IMG/VR virus record: IMGVR_UViG_2861053794_000003
Location: 1 to 48,167 of that record
Origin: a virus
Taxonomy: Duplodnaviria > Heunggongvirae > Uroviricota > Caudoviricetes
DNA length: 48,167 nt
Reading direction: 5' to 3' (one strand)
Of this stretch, positions 42,001-48,000 are shown piece by piece. Each line of letters starts with the position of its first letter. Positions within the stretch are counted from its first letter, which is position 1. Position numbers: made by a program.

Positions 42001-45000
42001 CCCCATACCAACCTCCCTCATTTCAGATACAAAAAGTGAACTTTTAGACATAAACAGCCTTTATCAAGCCGCCTCTGATGAAAAAAGAGCCATTGTGGCT
42101 TTTCTCTTATCAGAAAATGCCACGGAACCTGGTTGGGTTGATCATGACGTTCGCGCCTACATTGCCACAATGGAGATGAAGGTAGGTAAGTATTTGAAAG
42201 ATCAAGAATCAGAACGGAAAAGCCAGAACATCACCAAAACGGGAACTTAAACTTATATGGTCTGATGGGAACTTCCTAGAGCCCGTTATCTAGCCCCCCA
42301 TCACCTCTTCCACATATCATCGCCTATTAGGTTTGCATCAAAAACATTAGGCGAAGCCTATTGACAATTAATTAGGCATTACCTATAGTTCTCCCATACC
42401 AACCCACCCCGCCCACAGAACACCGGGCAATACTTCGAGTTACCCGGCAGTGATTAGGGGTTAAGTAGCCAGCCCGAGGCGTATGAACATGACGGCGGGA
42501 ACACTTTGTATAACAGCGCAGCAGGTTTTTAGTTCCGCTACCCCGGCGTTAAGGGGAAATGAGGTCAACATGGATACGCTCAATCTTAGCAACAACGAAT
42601 CTCTGGTATGCGGTGTGTTCCCTAACCAGGACGGCACCTTCACCGCGATGACGTATACCAAAAGTAAAACGTTTAAAACCGCAGCTGGCGCGCATCGCTG
42701 GTTAGCAAGAAACACTGACTGATGAGGTTGACGATGGAATTTAAATATTTACCGCCTTCAATCCAGGAGATTGCAGCACACACACTTCGTCATCGTCTGA
42801 ACGAACTTGAATTGGAATCGGTAACAAAAAAAGACACTGATAATATGGCTCGTAATGTGCGCGATGCGTTTACTGGGCTGTTTTCAGATACAGCTTTAAA
42901 TATCCATAGCACAGAGGATACAGCAAAACAATTTGCAGAAAAAGAAGTGGAAGATCTCAGTTCAAAGAGCCAGAAACAGCCAAACAACCATGAAATTAAC
43001 GAACTGCTTCTGGCAACAGGCTTCATAAATATTAACGAATATGAACGCCGTAAAAAAATGTTATCTGATCAATCCATCAAGATATCTTTTTAGCATCAGC
43101 GTTTCTACGTTATTAAAACCATCAGATTTTAACATAGCTTCGATTCGCTGATTTAAATTGCCAACTAACTGTTGATACTGAGTAGATGGAAGCATGTGTA
43201 CCAGCTCCTTGAGAACACAATAACATGCACCAAGTTTTAACTCCTGCTCTGACATTTTATCCTCCATTGAGGTTACTGGTTGAGAATGGAGACCTCTCGT
43301 GACAGCGTGTGGCCGTGCGCCGGACACGGATAAGAATCCGGCACTGACAGTTTACTGAAAGGATATATCCCTGAAAAGTCAGGGCATAACACGAAAGCGC
43401 ACGGCGAGATTCCTTTGCATATAAGGCTTGTCGTTAAATTTCTTCAACCGTGCGTTTCCGGTTGTGGCAATCCGCGAAATAGCGCGGCGGTAAGTATGGC
43501 GGGGTTATTCCTTCCCCCGTTGAGGACACCGGGTTGTCAGGTTGACCATACGCTTAAGTGACACCCCAGCCACAACAACCTCTGTTATCACTTTTCTGGT
43601 GATTCGGCGGAAATGGATATCCGCTCTTTTTAAAGTGAATTTTGTGATGCGGTGAATGCGGCCATGCGCACGCGGAACAGTTAAAACAAGCGGTCTTTAA
43701 CTTGCGTAACAGACATCAACTAACAATCCGGCGTTAATTGTTAACTGGTTAACGTCATCTGGAGGCACCAGGCACGGCATCACAAAATTCATTGTTGAGG
43801 ACGCGATAATGGAAACGTTATTACCAAACGTTAATACGTCTGAAGGTTGTTTTGATATTGGTGTTCTGCTCAGTAATAAAGCGTTTACTGAGGATGCCAT
43901 TAATATGCGGAAATATGAGCCTTATCTGCTCAATGATAATTCCATTCTTTCCCGAATTGCCCTTATTAAACTTGGTATTTTCGGAGAACGTCAATGACTT
44001 CAGCATTTGCACTGGTGATGACGGTTTTTCTTATAACGGGTGAATCACAGAATGTGATTACCGGAATTTATGCCAGTAAAGAATCCTGCCTCCAGGCAAG
44101 AGACGAGCAAAAAATTTCTGGTGAATGCCTCCCGGTAAAAAAAGTATCGCTGTACCTGAATAACGAAACACCGGCTGGATAACCCTCCAGCCATATTAAC
44201 GCCATACCAACGGATTAAAAATGCCAGCAATGGCAGGGATTCGTTCACCCTGAAATCTGTAATGAGGTTAAAACACAATGAGTAAAATCTTTATTTGCGT
44301 GGCTATTCCTGATGAACAGGCCATAAAAGAAGATAGCGCTGTTGCGGTGGCCACTGCCATTGAAGCCGGTGATGAGCGTCGCGCACGCGCAAAATTTCAC
44401 TGGCAATTTCTGGAGCAATTCCCGGCAGCTCAGGACAGCGCTTATAAATTTATTGTCTGTGAGGATAAACCCGGCATACCCCGCCCTGCCCTCGATTCCT
44501 GGGATACCGAATATATGCAGGAAAACCGCTGGGATGTGGCGTCTGCTTCCTTTGTCCCGGTCGAGACTGAATCCGATCCGATGAACGTCACCTTTGACAA
44601 GCTGGCCCCTGAAGTACAGAACGCCGTCATGGTTAAGTTCGACACATGTGAAAACATCACTGTTGATATGGTGATTAGCGCACAGGAATTGTTGCAGGAA
44701 GACATGGCAACATTCGACGGCCATATCGTTGAAGCGTTGATGAAAATGCCAGAAGTTAACGCCATGTATCCGGAGCTTAAGCTGCATGCCATCGGGTGGG
44801 TTAAGCATAAATGCAAGCCTGCTGCTAAATGGCCCGAAATTCAGGCAGAGATGCGCATCTGGAAAAAACGTCGCGAAGGTGAACGCAAGGAAACCGGGAA
44901 ATACACATCTGTCGTTGATATCGCCCGTTCCAGAGTAAACCAACAGAACACTGAAAACTCTGCTGAAAAAACCGGGGCTGTCACTGTTGCCGTTCGCCGA

Positions 45001-48000
45001 GAATACAAACAGACATGGAAAACACTCGACCATGAGCTGGCCTGCGCCCTCTGGCCCGGTGATGTGAATGCGGGAAATATTGACGGTACCATCCATCGCT
45101 GGGCGACAAATGAGGTTATCGACAAGGATCGCGAAGACTGGAAGCGTATCTCAGCATCAATGCGCAAACAGCCCGAAGCACTTGGCTATGACCGTCAGAC
45201 TATTTTTGGCCTTGTCCGTGAACATCCGATCGACATTCACAAAGATCCCGTTGCACTGAACAAATATATCAGCGAATACCTGACAACAAAGGGCGTGTTT
45301 GAGCATGAAGAAACAGACCAGAGCTCTGCTGATGCTCTCCAGCCGTCAGCAGCACAAACTGCTCCAGTGGAGACGGCAGAATCCGATACTCAAAAAAATG
45401 AAATCCTGGTGGAAGCTGAACCATCTGTAGAGCGTGAAGGACCATTTTATTTCGTCTTTACCGATAAGGGCGGGGAAAAATACGGCAGGGCAAACAAACT
45501 TTCTGGTCTGGACAAGGCGCTGGCTGCCGGCGCTACCGAAATCTCAAAAGAGGAATATTTTGCCCGAAAAAATGGCACATATACGGGCTTACCGCAAAAT
45601 GTAGATACCGCTGAAGATTCCGTACAACCAGAGCCGGTAAAAGTTACCGCTGACGAAGTAAACAAAATTATGCAGGCAGCCAATATCAGCCAGCCTGACG
45701 CCGATAAATTGCTTGCTGCATCACGTGGTGAATTTGTTGAAGGGATTAGCGACCCTAATGATCCGAAATGGGTGAAAGGGATCCAGAGTCGCAACGCTGA
45801 GGACCAGAATCAGCCCGGCGTGAAACAAAATGAGCCAGAAGCGGAACAAAACAGCCCGGATACGCAACAAAACGGGCCAGAAGAGCAACAACCAGAACCA
45901 GCAGTGCAACAGGAAGTGGAGAAAGTTTGCACCGCATGCGGTCAGACCGGTGGCGGCAACTGTCCTGACTGTGGTGCGGTGATGGGCGACGCAACCTACC
46001 AGGAAACATTCGATGGAGAGAGCCTGGTTGAAGTTCAGGAAAATGCTCCGGAGGAAATGGAAGGCACTGAAGATCCGCACAAGGAGAACACTGACAGCGA
46101 TCAGTATCACGCCAGCGATAATAAAACTGGCGAGACAGCAAATCCCTTAATTAAGGTGAACGGTCATCGTGAAATTACATCCACCAGCAGGTTGTGGCAC
46201 CATCTGATGATTGACCTTGAAACAATGGGAAAAAATCCTGATGCGCCAATAAACGCTATAGCCGGTAAGTTTTTTGATCCGGCAACCGGAGAGATGGGGC
46301 CAGAATTCAGCAAAACTATCGATCTGGAAACCGCAGGCGGGGTCATCGAACGGGACACCATTAAGTGGTGGCTGAAACAGTCACGCGAAGCACAATCCGC
46401 CATTCTGACCGATGAAATCCCGTTGGATGATGCACTGCTGCAATTCCGGGAATTTATCGACGAAAACTCCGGTGAATTTTTTGTTCAGGTCTGGGGTAAC
46501 GGTGCAACTTTCGACAACGTGATTTTACGCCGTTCATATGAACGGCAGGGGATCCCCTGCCCGTGGCGTTACACCAATGATCGCGATGTAAGAACGATGG
46601 TTGCTCTGGGACTGGTGATGGATTTCGACGCAAGAACGACTATTCCATTCGAAGGTGAACACCATAACGCCCTGCACGATACGCGTTACCAGGCAAAATA
46701 CGTTTCAGCCATCTGGCAAAAACTGATCCCGAGTCAGGCTGATTTTTAATGTTCAACCGTCGCCAGTTGTAGTTGCTATTCTGCAACTGGCGCATTCCGG
46801 AGTGATGGCCATGAGCGAACAGTACCTGATAACGCTCGACGAGTGGAAACCTAAACGGTTCAGTCTCCCAATAACAAACACTACCCTGGTGAAATACGGA
46901 AAAATGGGATACATCGTTCCAAGGCCACAAAAAATCCGTGGGCGTTGGCTGATAGATCGCCGAGCAGTATTTGTGGGTCCTAGTGAAACAGGAATTGCGC
47001 CGGAAATTCATACTGACGATGATGACGCACTGAAGGAGATTTTAACTCATGTCACCGAGGCCACGAAAAAACAGCACTGACATAGCATGTCTTTACGAAA
47101 AGTTCGATCGCAGAACTGGCAAGGTTTACTACCAGTATAAAAATCCAGTGACTGGAAAATTTCACGGACTCGGAACAGACAAAGGCAAGGCAGAAAAAAT
47201 CGCTTCCACGGCCAATCAACGAATAGCTGCAGCAGAAGCAGAATATTTCATGCGCAAAATTGATGAAAGTCCATCAGCAACAAAACGTCGGGGTATCAGA
47301 TTAAAAGCATGGGTTGATCGATATCTGAAAATACAGGACTCACGACTGAAAAATGGAGATATTGCAGCTACAACCCACAAAGAAAAGGCGCGAATGGCTG
47401 CATACCTGGTTTCCCGCCTGGGAAATCACCCATTGAAAGACCTGGAAGTAAGAGACTTTGCATTAATACTGGATGAATGGCTGGATAAAGACATGGTCAG
47501 CACAGCGAGAGTAAATCGCGGATTATGGGTTGATATTTATAAAGAAGCACAACATGCAGGGGAAGTTCCTCCTGGATGGAATCCTCCGGAGGCTACCCGT
47601 AAACCGATCCCTAAAGTAACCAGAGCCAGGCTCGCCCTGGAAGACTGGCAAAAAATTTACAACGCAACGCCGGAAAAACACTTTATCCGTAACGCAATGC
47701 TTCTTGCGATTGTCACTGGTCAGCGCCGTGATGACATTTGCCACATGCGTTTTTCAGATGTGTGGAACGAACACTTGCATATCACCCAGGGAAAAACCGG
47801 AATGCGTCTGGCGTTACCGCTTACACTACGCTGTGATGCCATTGGGATAACGTTAAAAGACGTTATTGATAGATGCCGAGACAGAATATTAAGTCCATAT
47901 CTAATCCATAGTCGGCACCAGAAACAACCAAAGCCGATGAGTAAAGACAACCTGAGCGACTACTTTGCCAAAGCGCGGGATCTGGCTGGAATAATTCCAC

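What the first reader, a model, noticed from the sequence alone, without database searches (positions are those of the whole stretch)
44278..46749. Large exonuclease with DEDDh domain, embedded zinc ribbon and no partner annealase
Where Rac has recE-recT and lambda has exo-bet, this phage has one 823-aa protein. Its C-terminal ~180 aa carry the three DnaQ-family motifs (D-x-E, FD, H-x4-D), which indicate a 3'-5' exonuclease rather than the 5'-3' PD-(D/E)XK nuclease of canonical RecE. There is a CxxC...CxxC zinc ribbon and an acidic low-complexity linker. No RecT/Bet/Erf-like gene lies between it and xis or upstream. This may be a different recombination or anti-defence logic.
Basis: partly seen in the sequence, partly recalled or inferred. 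Interest (0 to 1): 0.5.

Follow-up and report, generated by a model that had tools for sequence, protein, structure and literature searches.

The report
RecE-like scaffold carrying a 3'-5' exonuclease
This prophage gene encodes a RecE-like scaffold protein whose usual 5'-3' nuclease (and the partner annealase gene) has been replaced by a DexA-type 3'-5' exonuclease; the family is present in about three quarters of E. coli genomes, yet I found no experimental study of it.

Summary
ORF 44278-46749 (+) encodes 823 aa. Residues 641-813 are a PF16473 DEDDh exonuclease domain (E=6e-61) with all five catalytic residues invariant. There is a CxxC-x7-CxxC zinc ribbon and an acidic disordered linker. 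No annealase is detectable anywhere in the window.

It is not a one-off. DNA of this nuclease domain occurs in 4039 of 5426 complete E. coli genomes. It has its own PHROG and Pfam families, and K-12 ydfE is its truncated remnant.

The protein is a mosaic:
- a YdfE-type N-terminal module;
- the RecE middle region, including the zinc ribbon;
- a swapped nuclease domain.

In an E. coli locus with the same gene order, the same scaffold carries a PD-(D/E)XK nuclease followed directly by recT. In Klebsiella and Pantoea it carries a Rad52-like annealase domain. Stand-alone relatives of the DEDDh domain sit in annealase-SSB-exonuclease operons in a minority of species.

Best reading: an early-operon DNA 3'-5' end-processing enzyme of the phage recombination module that works without its own annealase. 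The function is inferred, not shown. A defence role like that of EcD, and RNA as substrate, remain open.

Interest is moderate. The family is already catalogued, but its architecture and logic are undescribed in the papers I could search.

The parts
44278..46749 (+). Whole gene: 823-aa YdfE/RecE-scaffold protein with a C-terminal DEDDh exonuclease
   Evidence: ORF; PHROG 2082 matched end to end, 1-823 of 823; RefSeq product 'exonuclease' in a 99.9% identical prophage; overall dN/dS 0.175 against phage Tritos
44278..44892 (+). YdfE_N-type N-terminal domain (aa 1-205): an alpha/beta subdomain followed by a helical bundle
   Evidence: 89% identity to the K-12 Qin pseudogene ydfE over aa 1-255; AF2 pLDDT 80-92; dN/dS 0.087; PF27430 YdfE_N is precomputed on 94%-identical homologues; no informative fold relative
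45010..45297 (+). Second folded helical domain (aa 245-340), probably part of YdfE_C
   Evidence: AF2 pLDDT 84-92; dN/dS 0.115; weakly alignable to RecE 288-347
45433..45588 (+). Small conserved beta/alpha unit (aa 386-437) with motif ERxGPFYF..GRANK..EISxEEYxARKNG
   Evidence: Nearly invariant across all scaffold relatives, whatever their C-terminal effector; AF2 pLDDT 76-87; dN/dS 0.067
45670..46152 (+). RecE-homologous middle region (aa 465-625)
   Evidence: BLASTP against Rac RecE, E=5e-57, with the strongest stretch aligned to RecE 455-591; NCBIfam RecE model matches only this part; Rac-SA53 recE DNA matches only nt 1429-1834 of the gene
45928..45972 (+). Four-cysteine zinc ribbon C551xxC554-x7-C562xxC565
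   Evidence: Positions; conserved in homologues and in Rac RecE; dN=0; AF2 gives only a low-confidence beta hairpin, pLDDT 55-59
45988..46197 (+). Acidic, disordered linker (aa 571-640) containing the mosaic junction with RecE (about aa 611-625)
   Evidence: Composition; pLDDT <35; dN/dS 0.69; homology to RecE ends at aa 625
46198..46716 (+). DEDDh 3'-5' exonuclease domain (aa 641-813), PF16473, DexA/Rv2179c family
   Evidence: Pfam E=6.3e-61; closest solved structure by sequence is 8KEL, a 227-aa exodeoxyribonuclease that I identify as T4 DexA, E=9e-6; 37% identical to EcD; catalytic residues invariant; dN/dS 0.113
42361..42389 (+). Promoter-like site (11 of 12 consensus positions) downstream of racR; likely the early-left promoter of the operon that includes the gene
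   Evidence: Consensus scan; no other promoter-like site lies between it and the gene; same gene order as the K-12 Qin dicBF operon
43809..44182 (+). dicB and the ydfD-like (DUF1482) genes directly upstream
   Evidence: PGAP annotation of the 99.9% identical record; same order in phage Tritos and in K-12 Qin
46811..48167 (+). Excisionase and integrase genes directly downstream, with no gene in between (61-nt gap)
   Evidence: PGAP annotation; ORFs

Best explanation
The gene encodes a member of the RecE/YdfE scaffold family.

Architecture (shown):
- a folded N-terminal module (YdfE_N and YdfE_C);
- the RecE-type middle region with a zinc ribbon and an acidic flexible linker;
- a DexA/Rv2179c-type DEDDh 3'-5' exonuclease domain in place of RecE's PD-(D/E)XK 5'-3' nuclease.
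The recT gene that follows the PD-(D/E)XK version is absent.

Expression (inferred from gene order and a promoter scan): the gene lies in the early-left operon (racR | DicF-like - dicB - ydfD - exo - xis - int), so it is made on induction or infection and not in the quiescent lysogen.

Mechanism (inferred by homology): the DEDDh domain removes nucleotides from free 3' ends by two-metal catalysis, with H796 as general base. The substrate is most likely DNA. The scaffold takes the nuclease to the same, still unknown, partner or DNA site to which it takes RecE's nuclease or a Rad52-like annealase in sister proteins.

Likely role (inference): processing of linear DNA ends in the phage recombination or replication programme without a dedicated annealase. 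Exposed complementary 5' tails would anneal spontaneously, or with host or co-resident prophage functions. From my own knowledge, the 3'-5' exonucleases of vaccinia DNA polymerase and of E. coli XthA do this in annealase-independent end joining.
For: Architecture:
- PF16473 at aa 641-813, with catalytic residues invariant.
- RecE homology at aa 273-625 but not beyond.
- YdfE identity at aa 1-255.
- Folded domains and disordered linkers from AF2 agree with per-segment dN/dS: 0.07-0.12 in domains, 0.7-1.0 in linkers.

Module exchange:
- In an E. coli locus with identical gene order (DUF1391-DicB-DUF1482-X-...-Exc-Int), the same scaffold (82-86% identical over aa 1-460) carries a DUF3799 PD-(D/E)XK domain and is followed immediately by RecT.
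- In the window the gene is followed immediately by xis.
- In Klebsiella and Pantoea the scaffold carries a C-terminal domain that hits Pfam Rad52_Rad22 below threshold in 5 of 5 members. Its stand-alone homologues (E about 1e-58) are named Rad52/Rad22 family DNA repair proteins. A Gam-like gene lies upstream and Sipho_Gp157 downstream.

Association of the nuclease family with recombination:
- Stand-alone PF16473 genes about 51% identical to this domain sit in tight ERF-SSB-exo or Rad52-SSB-exo operons.

Substrate:
- The closest characterised relatives, T4 DexA and E. coli EcD, are DNA 3'-5' exonucleases.

Absence of an annealase is general:
- 0 of 80 IMG/VR loci have RecT or Bet in the flanks.
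- 0 of 20 long fusions in other species have RecT, Bet, Erf, Rad52-like or SSB within 7 kb.

The gene is functional:
- It occurs in phage genome records (Tritos, mEp460, HannyBb) and in 4039 of 5426 E. coli genomes.

Operon placement.
Against: - There is no experimental evidence for this protein.
- DNA versus RNA cannot be decided from sequence. The Pfam family is named after an exoribonuclease, and NCBI often calls these proteins 3'-5' exoribonucleases.
- 3'-5' resection leaves 5' tails, which cannot prime synthesis and are not the substrate of the classical exonuclease-annealase pathway.
- The prophage has no annealase, SSB or Gam.
- 51 of 60 stand-alone relatives are not next to any recombination gene I could detect.
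- EcD, 37% identical, is reported as an anti-T4 defence nuclease.
- The N-terminal module has no informative structural or sequence relative, so its targeting role rests only on domain shuffling.
Confidence: 0.5

Rival explanations
1. Anti-phage (superinfection exclusion) nuclease of the EcD/'HREX' type. The DEDDh domain would selectively degrade incoming modified (5hmC or other) phage DNA from its 3' ends and so protect the lysogen.
For: - EcD is a 189-aa E. coli DexA homologue reported to digest 5hmC DNA and to protect against T4.
- I identified its sequence in prophage contigs. It is 37% identical to aa 644-816 of this protein, E=2e-33.
- The family is extremely common in E. coli prophages, with up to 7 copies per genome, as is typical of genes useful to the host.
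Against: - The position aligned to DexA W152, reported as needed for activity on T4 DNA, is T766 here and T/Y/N/S in close homologues. The D169 equivalent is D/G.
- No PADLOC defence model matches.
- The gene sits in the repressed early-left operon with no promoter-like site of its own.
- The same scaffold carries recombination effectors elsewhere.
- The long scaffold is unexplained by this model.
Confidence: 0.15
2. Antagonist of host or competitor DNA transactions rather than a recombination promoter. It would trim 3' single-stranded tails or degrade linear DNA. Possible outcomes: blocking RecA loading, removing RecBCD/Chi products, destroying 3'-ended defence molecules, or scavenging host DNA as T4 DexA does.
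For: - The polarity is opposite to all known phage recombination exonucleases.
- No annealase, SSB or Gam is present.
- DexA has a host-DNA scavenging role according to PMC12153337.
- From my own knowledge, E. coli 3'-5' exonucleases such as ExoI suppress the RecF pathway.
Against: - Temperate lambdoid phages are not known to degrade host DNA.
- There is no direct evidence.
- The annealase-SSB-exo operons of stand-alone relatives point to cooperation with annealing, not antagonism.
Confidence: 0.15
3. A 3'-5' exoribonuclease, like the family's founding member Rv2179c, acting on RNA. Possible targets are trimming or turnover of operon transcripts and sRNAs such as the DicF-like RNA encoded just upstream.
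For: - The Pfam family name and NCBI product names say '3'-5' exoribonuclease'.
- From my own knowledge, DEDDh enzymes such as RNase T act on both RNA and DNA.
- A DicF-like sRNA gene lies in the same operon.
Against: - The closest characterised relatives by sequence are DNases.
- The domain replaces a dsDNA exonuclease on a recombination scaffold.
- It is found beside ERF or Rad52 and SSB genes.
Confidence: 0.1
4. A decaying, functionless remnant of a recombination module in defective prophages.
For: - K-12 carries only a truncated, IS-interrupted copy, ydfE.
- A Shigella copy is frameshifted (L201).
- recT is missing.
Against: - The 823-aa frame is intact in thousands of genomes and in phage genome records.
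- dN/dS is 0.07-0.12 in every folded domain and about 1 only in linkers.
- Catalytic and zinc-binding residues are invariant.
Confidence: 0.03

Closest known systems
Rac prophage RecE (exodeoxyribonuclease VIII) with RecT
   Same: - Same genomic slot: early-left operon, just before xis-int.
- Homologous non-catalytic region. Aa 273-625 align to RecE 288-591, with a close match from about aa 465 on, including the CxxC-x7-CxxC zinc ribbon and acidic linker.
- Similar size (823 against 866 aa).
- The N-terminal region has unknown function in both (PMC11611040).
   Different: - The C-terminal nuclease is DEDDh (3'-5') rather than PD-(D/E)XK (5'-3').
- There is no recT.
- The first 260 aa or so are of YdfE type, not PF06630 type. 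Homology between the two N-termini is inconclusive (hhalign probability 32%).
- The RecE equivalog HMM scores 250 bits against a cut-off of 1269.
T4 DexA (exonuclease A; PDB 8KEL/8KEN)
   Same: - Same PF16473-type DEDDh fold family.
- Best solved-structure match by sequence, E=9e-6 over aa 643-790.
- Catalytic residues conserved.
[quoted passage not shown]
   Different: - Only about 27% identity.
- DexA is a stand-alone 227-aa protein of a lytic phage with extra loops.
- The residue aligned to DexA W152 (5hmC reading) is T766 here.
E. coli EcD ('HREX' defence exonuclease, PMC12153337)
   Same: - Prophage-borne PF16473 exonuclease of E. coli.
- 37% identity to aa 644-816, E=2e-33.
   Different: - EcD is a stand-alone 189-aa protein with no scaffold, zinc ribbon or linker.
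- EcD keeps the Trp at the DexA W152 position (PWCYWDER), whereas this protein has PWRYTNDR.
- EcD's reported function is defence against T4. Nothing comparable has been tested for this protein.
E. coli K-12 ydfE (Qin prophage pseudogene)
   Same: - 89% identical over aa 1-255.
- Same position after dicB-ydfD.
- Founding sequence of Pfam YdfE_N and YdfE_C.
   Different: K-12 ydfE is a fragment cut by IS2 and lacks the middle region and the nuclease domain.
Annealase-SSB-exonuclease recombination modules of temperate enterobacterial phages (ERF or Rad52_Rad22 + SSB + PF16473 exonuclease)
   Same: The exonuclease is of the same family and about 51% identical to aa 641-823.
   Different: - There the exonuclease is a 183-aa stand-alone protein whose gene starts 15-21 bp after an SSB gene, itself preceded by an annealase gene.
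- Here it is fused to the RecE/YdfE scaffold, and neither an annealase nor an SSB is present.
Mycobacterium tuberculosis Rv2179c
   Same: It is the founding member of Pfam PF16473, which this domain matches over its full length.
   Different: - Rv2179c is described as an exoribonuclease and is a bacterial stand-alone protein.
- It was not retrieved by a sequence search of solved structures at E<=1.

Membership tests
RecE / exodeoxyribonuclease VIII (NCBIfam NF007259 equivalog) | C-terminal PD-(D/E)XK (RecB-like, DUF3799-type) 5'-3' nuclease domain | tested here: not met
   No PD-(D/E)XK Pfam hit. BLASTP homology to RecE stops at RecE residue 591. tblastn with RecE finds only 45094-46152 of the window.
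RecE / exodeoxyribonuclease VIII (NCBIfam NF007259 equivalog) | Whole-protein score above the curated equivalog cut-off | tested here: not met
   249.7 bits against a cut-off of 1269; best stretch aa 453-625 only
RecE / exodeoxyribonuclease VIII (NCBIfam NF007259 equivalog) | Non-catalytic middle region with zinc ribbon and acidic linker | tested here: met
   Aa 465-625 align closely to RecE 455-591, with all four Cys conserved
Two-component phage recombinase (exonuclease + annealase: RecET, Red alpha/beta, SynExo) | Annealase gene (RecT/Bet, Erf, Rad52-like) adjacent or in the same phage | tested here: not met
   None in the PGAP annotation, in Pfam/PHROG scans of unassigned ORFs or by six-frame tblastn with RecT and Bet. 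Also 0 of 80 and 0 of 20 related loci. Annealase families with no representative among my queries could be missed.
Two-component phage recombinase (exonuclease + annealase: RecET, Red alpha/beta, SynExo) | 5'-3' dsDNA exonuclease activity | not testable with these tools
   Domain homology predicts 3'-5' polarity. This needs an assay on end-labelled substrates.
DnaQ-like DEDDh exonucleases, Pfam PF16473 (Rv2179c-like / DexA family) | HMM match above the gathering score over the full domain | tested here: met
   205.6 bits against 27; profile positions 1-177 of 177
DnaQ-like DEDDh exonucleases, Pfam PF16473 (Rv2179c-like / DexA family) | Catalytic D-E-D-D plus His (motifs DxE, xxD, Hx4D) | tested here: met
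   D646, E648, D746, H796 and D801 are present and invariant in 38 homologues
DnaQ-like DEDDh exonucleases, Pfam PF16473 (Rv2179c-like / DexA family) | 3'-5' exonuclease activity and substrate (DNA or RNA) | not testable with these tools
   Inferred only. Characterised relatives: DexA and EcD act on DNA; Rv2179c acts on RNA (family description).
HREX (5hmC-recognising DexA/EcD exonucleases, PMC12153337) | Trp and Asp equivalent to DexA W152 and D169, reported as required for activity on T4 DNA | tested here: not met
   W152 aligns to T766 (T/Y/N/S in close homologues). D169 aligns to D782 (D/G in homologues). EcD keeps the Trp. The alignment is at about 27% identity, so it is approximate.
HREX (5hmC-recognising DexA/EcD exonucleases, PMC12153337) | Modification-dependent DNase activity and protection from T4 | not testable with these tools
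   Needs biochemistry and phage challenge
YdfE scaffold (Pfam PF27430 YdfE_N + PF27432 YdfE_C) | Match to both domain models | tested here: inconclusive
   These models are not in the local Pfam copy (one search shows none). Indirect support: both are precomputed on homologues 94% identical and named, and aa 1-255 are 89% identical to K-12 YdfE.
Known anti-phage defence systems (PADLOC-DB 2.0) | Match to any defence-system protein model | tested here: not met
   0 families at E<=0.01

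The most novel reading that the evidence does not exclude
The YdfE/RecE N-terminal scaffold is a general delivery module that docks interchangeable DNA-end effectors onto one cellular or phage target. The effectors seen are a 5'-3' nuclease, a 3'-5' nuclease, a Rad52-like annealase and a fourth unknown domain.

On this reading, the DEDDh version, by far the commonest in E. coli, runs an annealase-independent recombination or end-joining pathway driven by 3'-5' resection. Alternatively, it deliberately destroys 3' tails to control host recombination or defence. 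This would be a phage recombination logic not described so far, and it would also explain what RecE's enigmatic N-terminal 600 residues are for.
Probability: 0.2. Interest if true: 0.7.

Novelty: new variant of a known kind. Interest (0 to 1): 0.45.

Why it matters
RecET and Red are the basis of recombineering, yet the N-terminal two thirds of RecE still have no known function (PMC11611040).

This locus shows that the same scaffold is combined in nature with nucleases of opposite polarity, or with an annealase. It also shows that the 3'-5' version, with no annealase, is the dominant form in E. coli prophages: 4039 of 5426 genomes, against about 160-190 for the YdfE-type PD-(D/E)XK + RecT cassette.

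That gives a direct experimental handle on two questions. What does the scaffold bind? Can a phage recombination module work, or be turned into something else, with 3'-5' resection?

It also puts the recently reported EcD defence nuclease in context. EcD is one stand-alone member of a large phage exonuclease family, some of whose members sit in annealase-SSB-exonuclease operons.

Finally, it exposes annotation errors. Rad52-like fusion proteins are labelled 'exodeoxyribonuclease VIII', and DNase-like domains are labelled 'exoribonuclease'.

Tried and rejected
- AF2 of the full protein with 27 close homologues failed (mean pLDDT 34). Only a second run on aa 1-640 with a more diverse alignment gave usable domains.
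- hhalign of YdfE_N against the RecE PF06630-type N-terminus was inconclusive (probability 32%).
- A profile of the putative Rad52-like domain found no Rad52 among solved structures. Support came instead from Pfam sub-threshold hits in 5 of 5 members and from named stand-alone homologues.
- Literature searches for ydfE+dicB, Rv2179c and RecE+DEDDh+prophage found no study of this protein. One search was wasted because 'RecE' matched 'receptor'.
- The first full-length homology search returned only near-identical E. coli sequences.
- Rfam at gathering threshold found no DicF in the operon, although a divergent DicF-like stretch is there.
- Fetching the first 16 kb of P22 did not contain erf; it was fetched later.
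- The RecT tblastn against phages served only to find a comparator locus.
- I considered and rejected the idea that the zinc ribbon and acidic linker are special to this protein. Both are shared with Rac RecE.

Full report
**1. Observation**

The window carries an 823-codon ORF at 44278-46749 on the + strand, with a GAGG about 10 nt before the ATG. Pfam places a complete Rv2179c-like DEDDh 3'-5' exonuclease domain (PF16473) at aa 641-813 (E=6.3e-61, 205.6 bits against a cut-off of 27). All five catalytic residues are invariant in 27 close and 11 distant homologues.

The zinc ribbon is C551-x2-C554-x7-C562-x2-C565. The acidic stretch is real: aa 561-600 hold 12 D/E and no K/R. No PD-(D/E)XK domain is detectable.

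**2. Where the window comes from and what surrounds the gene**

From base 1116 on, the window is 99.9% identical to a lambdoid prophage of E. coli strain 95-3322. The local gene order is racR, DUF1391, a DicF-like stretch, dicB, a ydfD-like gene, the exonuclease, xis, int. The same order is seen in phage Tritos. It is also seen in the K-12 Qin prophage, where the gene survives only as the IS2-truncated pseudogene ydfE, 89% identical over aa 1-255.

A strong promoter-like site lies after racR at 42361-42389. No promoter-like site lies in front of the exonuclease gene, and no + strand terminator-like site lies between the DicF position and int. I infer from this, by analogy with the dicBF operon, that the gene belongs to the repressed early-left operon.

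**3. No annealase**

- PGAP annotation of the near-identical prophage names none.
- All unassigned ORFs were scanned against PHROGs and Pfam without an annealase hit.
- Six-frame tblastn with Rac RecT and with lambda Bet, Exo and Gam gave nothing better than E=0.067.
- The only recombination-related gene found is rusA.

The absence is general. None of the 80 IMG/VR loci closest in the middle region has RecT or Bet in its flanks, and all 80 are DEDDh-type. None of 20 long DEDDh fusions from other enterobacterial species has RecT, Bet, Erf, Rad52-like or SSB genes within 7 kb. Annealase families not represented among my queries could be missed.

**4. The protein is a mosaic relative of RecE**

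BLASTP against Rac RecE aligns aa 273-625 with RecE 288-591 (E=5e-57). The match is close from aa 465 on and includes the zinc ribbon and the acidic linker. Homology stops where RecE's nuclease domain begins. The NCBIfam RecE equivalog matches only aa 453-625, with 250 bits against a cut-off of 1269. At DNA level, Rac-SA53 recE matches only nt 1429-1834 of the gene.

So the zinc ribbon and linker are features of RecE's non-catalytic region, and the nuclease domain has been exchanged at the linker. A 2023 review states that the RecE N-terminal region has unknown function, although full-length RecE improves linear-linear recombination (PMC11611040).

**5. Domain structure**

AF2 with close homologues only failed (pLDDT 34). 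With a 37-sequence alignment that included distant relatives, aa 1-640 gave the following:

| Segment (aa) | AF2 result |
|---|---|
| 1-205, 245-340, 386-437 | confident domains, pLDDT about 76-92 |
| 549-570 (zinc ribbon) | low-confidence hairpin, pLDDT 55-59 |
| 344-384, 438-456, 499-548, 571-640 | disordered |

Segment-wise dN/dS against phage Tritos agrees:

| Segment | dN/dS |
|---|---|
| three N-terminal folded domains | 0.07-0.12 |
| DEDDh domain | 0.11 |
| zinc ribbon | dN = 0 |
| two linkers | 0.7 and 1.0 |

**6. The scaffold carries interchangeable effectors**

A search of 1.8 billion cluster representatives found many architectures.

- Proteins with a PF06630 RecE-type N-terminus and a PF16473 C-terminus are common.
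- YdfE-type N-termini occur with PF16473 (this protein), with a DUF3799 PD-(D/E)XK domain (P0139; E. coli P0300-P0304), or with no Pfam hit.
- In E. coli locus L092, the PD-(D/E)XK version sits in the same DUF1391-DicB-DUF1482 ... Exc-Int context and is followed at once by a RecT gene.
- In Klebsiella and Pantoea, the scaffold ends in a domain of about 290 aa with the motif KKSLTDAxKKALSLLGF. It hits Pfam Rad52_Rad22 just below threshold in 5 of 5 members. Its stand-alone 243-aa Pseudomonas homologues (E about 1e-58) are named Rad52/Rad22 family DNA repair proteins by NCBI and UniRef. These genes are preceded by Kil/KilR (in Klebsiella also by a weak Gam hit) and followed by Sipho_Gp157.
- An Enterobacter protein has a fourth, unknown C-terminal domain.

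Whether the YdfE_N and PF06630 N-termini are homologous is unresolved (hhalign probability 32%).

**7. The nuclease family**

PF16473-type domains related to this one occur in 1191 phage records, including the T4 DexA group at about 27% identity. The closest solved structure by sequence is 8KEL, a 227-aa exodeoxyribonuclease. I identify it as T4 DexA from its length and because the catalytic and named residues fall at the positions given in PMC12153337.

That paper also reports an E. coli homologue, EcD, that digests 5hmC DNA and protects against T4. Using the published primer, I found EcD as a 189-aa ORF in IMG/VR prophage contigs. Residue 78 is Ala, as the paper states. It is 37% identical to aa 644-816 here.

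The residue aligned to DexA W152, reported as needed for activity on T4 DNA, is Trp in EcD but T766 here, and T/Y/N/S in close homologues. The D169 equivalent is D/G. No PADLOC defence model matches. An EcD-like role is therefore not supported, but it is not excluded.

**8. Stand-alone relatives in recombination operons**

Sixty stand-alone PF16473 genes were found in species-representative genomes. Eight start 15-21 bp after an SSB gene. Six have an annealase gene upstream, five of them directly before that SSB gene. Pfam confirms ERF-SSB-exo in L159 and Rad52_Rad22-SSB-exo in L185.

This ties at least part of the family, about 51% identical to the domain here, to single-strand annealing recombination. 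The other 51 loci showed no such neighbours with my queries.

**9. Prevalence**

DNA of the DEDDh domain is found in 4039 of 5426 complete E. coli genomes, with up to 7 copies each. The full gene is found at 80% coverage or more in 3534 genomes. The YdfE-type PD-(D/E)XK + RecT cassette is found in 159-193 genomes.

Intact copies are present in the phage genome records Tritos, HannyBb, PhiR42_1 and mEp460. The family has its own PHROG (2082) and Pfam domains YdfE_N and YdfE_C. RefSeq names it 'exonuclease' or '3'-5' exonuclease'. I found no paper that studies it.

**10. Interpretation**

Shown:
- the architecture;
- the domain swap relative to RecE;
- the absence of an annealase;
- the selection pattern;
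- the modular use of the scaffold;
- the prevalence.

Inferred:
- early-operon expression;
- 3'-5' polarity;
- DNA as substrate;
- a role in DNA-end processing or recombination.

The most economical model is that the scaffold brings a 3'-5' DNA exonuclease to the place where, in sister phages, it brings RecE's nuclease or an annealase. The resulting 5' tails would then be joined without a dedicated annealase. From my own knowledge, vaccinia polymerase exonuclease and E. coli XthA-driven in vivo cloning are precedents.

Rivals are an EcD-like exclusion nuclease, an antagonist of host 3'-tail-dependent processes, an exoribonuclease, and a dead remnant. The last is contradicted by the conservation data.

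**11. Verdict**

The finding is real and correctly described. It concerns a ubiquitous, already catalogued gene family rather than an oddity of this phage. What is not in the literature I could search is the logic: a RecE/YdfE scaffold with interchangeable effectors, of which the annealase-less 3'-5' exonuclease form dominates in E. coli. I rate it a new variant of a known kind, with moderate interest (0.45).

Noticed in passing
L093:6001-8337 (Klebsiella aerogenes), L095:6001-8358 (Pantoea agglomerans); proteins P0277, P0281, P0138, P0144, P0146, P0169, P0223: Proteins of 730-790 aa labelled 'exodeoxyribonuclease VIII' (and PHROGs 2489/7838 'exonuclease') have the YdfE scaffold but no nuclease domain. 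Their C-terminal 290 aa or so look like a Rad52-type annealase: sub-threshold PF04098 hits in 5 of 5 members, and stand-alone homologues named Rad52/Rad22. Each is followed by a Sipho_Gp157 gene. This is probably a mis-annotation of a scaffold-annealase fusion.
   Followed up: partly
L159:5877-7549 and L185:5721-7549 (also L179, L181, L196; SSB only in L165, L187, L190): Tight three-gene operons: annealase (ERF or Rad52_Rad22), SSB, then a 183-aa PF16473 DEDDh exonuclease, with gaps of 15-21 bp. This suggests a recombination module built around a 3'-5' exonuclease.
   Followed up: partly
L096:6001-8106 (Enterobacter kobei, P0298; also P0129): A fourth scaffold variant of about 700 aa has a C-terminal domain with no Pfam hit (PHROG 26058, unknown function). 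It is followed by a DUF7740 gene.
   Followed up: no
L120:6401-6970 (- strand); also L099, L104, L114, L117: The EcD defence exonuclease of PMC12153337 could be located from its cloning primer as a 189-aa stand-alone PF16473 ORF in IMG/VR prophage contigs. The same source genome (UViG 2671181127) also carries an 823-aa-type gene (L012).
   Followed up: partly
window 43591-43630 (+): A divergent DicF-like stretch (TTTCTGGTGATTCGGCGGAAATGGATATCCGCTCTTTTT) ends in a terminator-like hairpin, at the position where Qin and phage Tritos have DicF. The surrounding region is about 80% identical to K-12. Rfam did not call it at gathering threshold.
   Followed up: partly
window 8747-9910 (-): A full ompC-like porin gene is inserted among the tail genes (between the minor tail protein L gene and a tail protein gene), in the 8001-10000 interval where GC drops to 0.47, below the 0.53-0.57 of the neighbouring 2-kb bins. 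It is annotated 'porin OmpC' in the near-identical RefSeq prophage.
   Followed up: no
window 29460-31300: About 1.9 kb has no annotated gene and no long ORF. It lies between the SASA-family esterase gene and two tRNA genes, the region where, from my own knowledge, Stx phages carry stx. ARAGORN calls the second tRNA Met(CAT) whereas PGAP calls it Ile, so it is probably a lysidine-type tRNA-Ile.
   Followed up: no
window 1-1115 and 906-2366 (-): The first 1115 bases differ from strain 95-3322, where IS100 interrupts the tail-fibre region. The window has an intact 486-aa tail-fibre gene with collagen-like G-x-y repeats and a tail-fibre assembly-like ORF at 1-675.
   Followed up: no
window 36547-37109 (+) and 2508-2648 (-): The prophage carries a ParD/ParE toxin-antitoxin pair in the nin region and a Hok/Gef family gene next to the tail-fibre genes, according to the annotation of the near-identical record.
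   Followed up: no
window 42722-43093 (+): A 123-aa ORF is open here, whereas RefSeq flags the corresponding feature in strain 95-3322 (42734-42884) as an incomplete pseudogene. It has no Pfam family.
   Followed up: no
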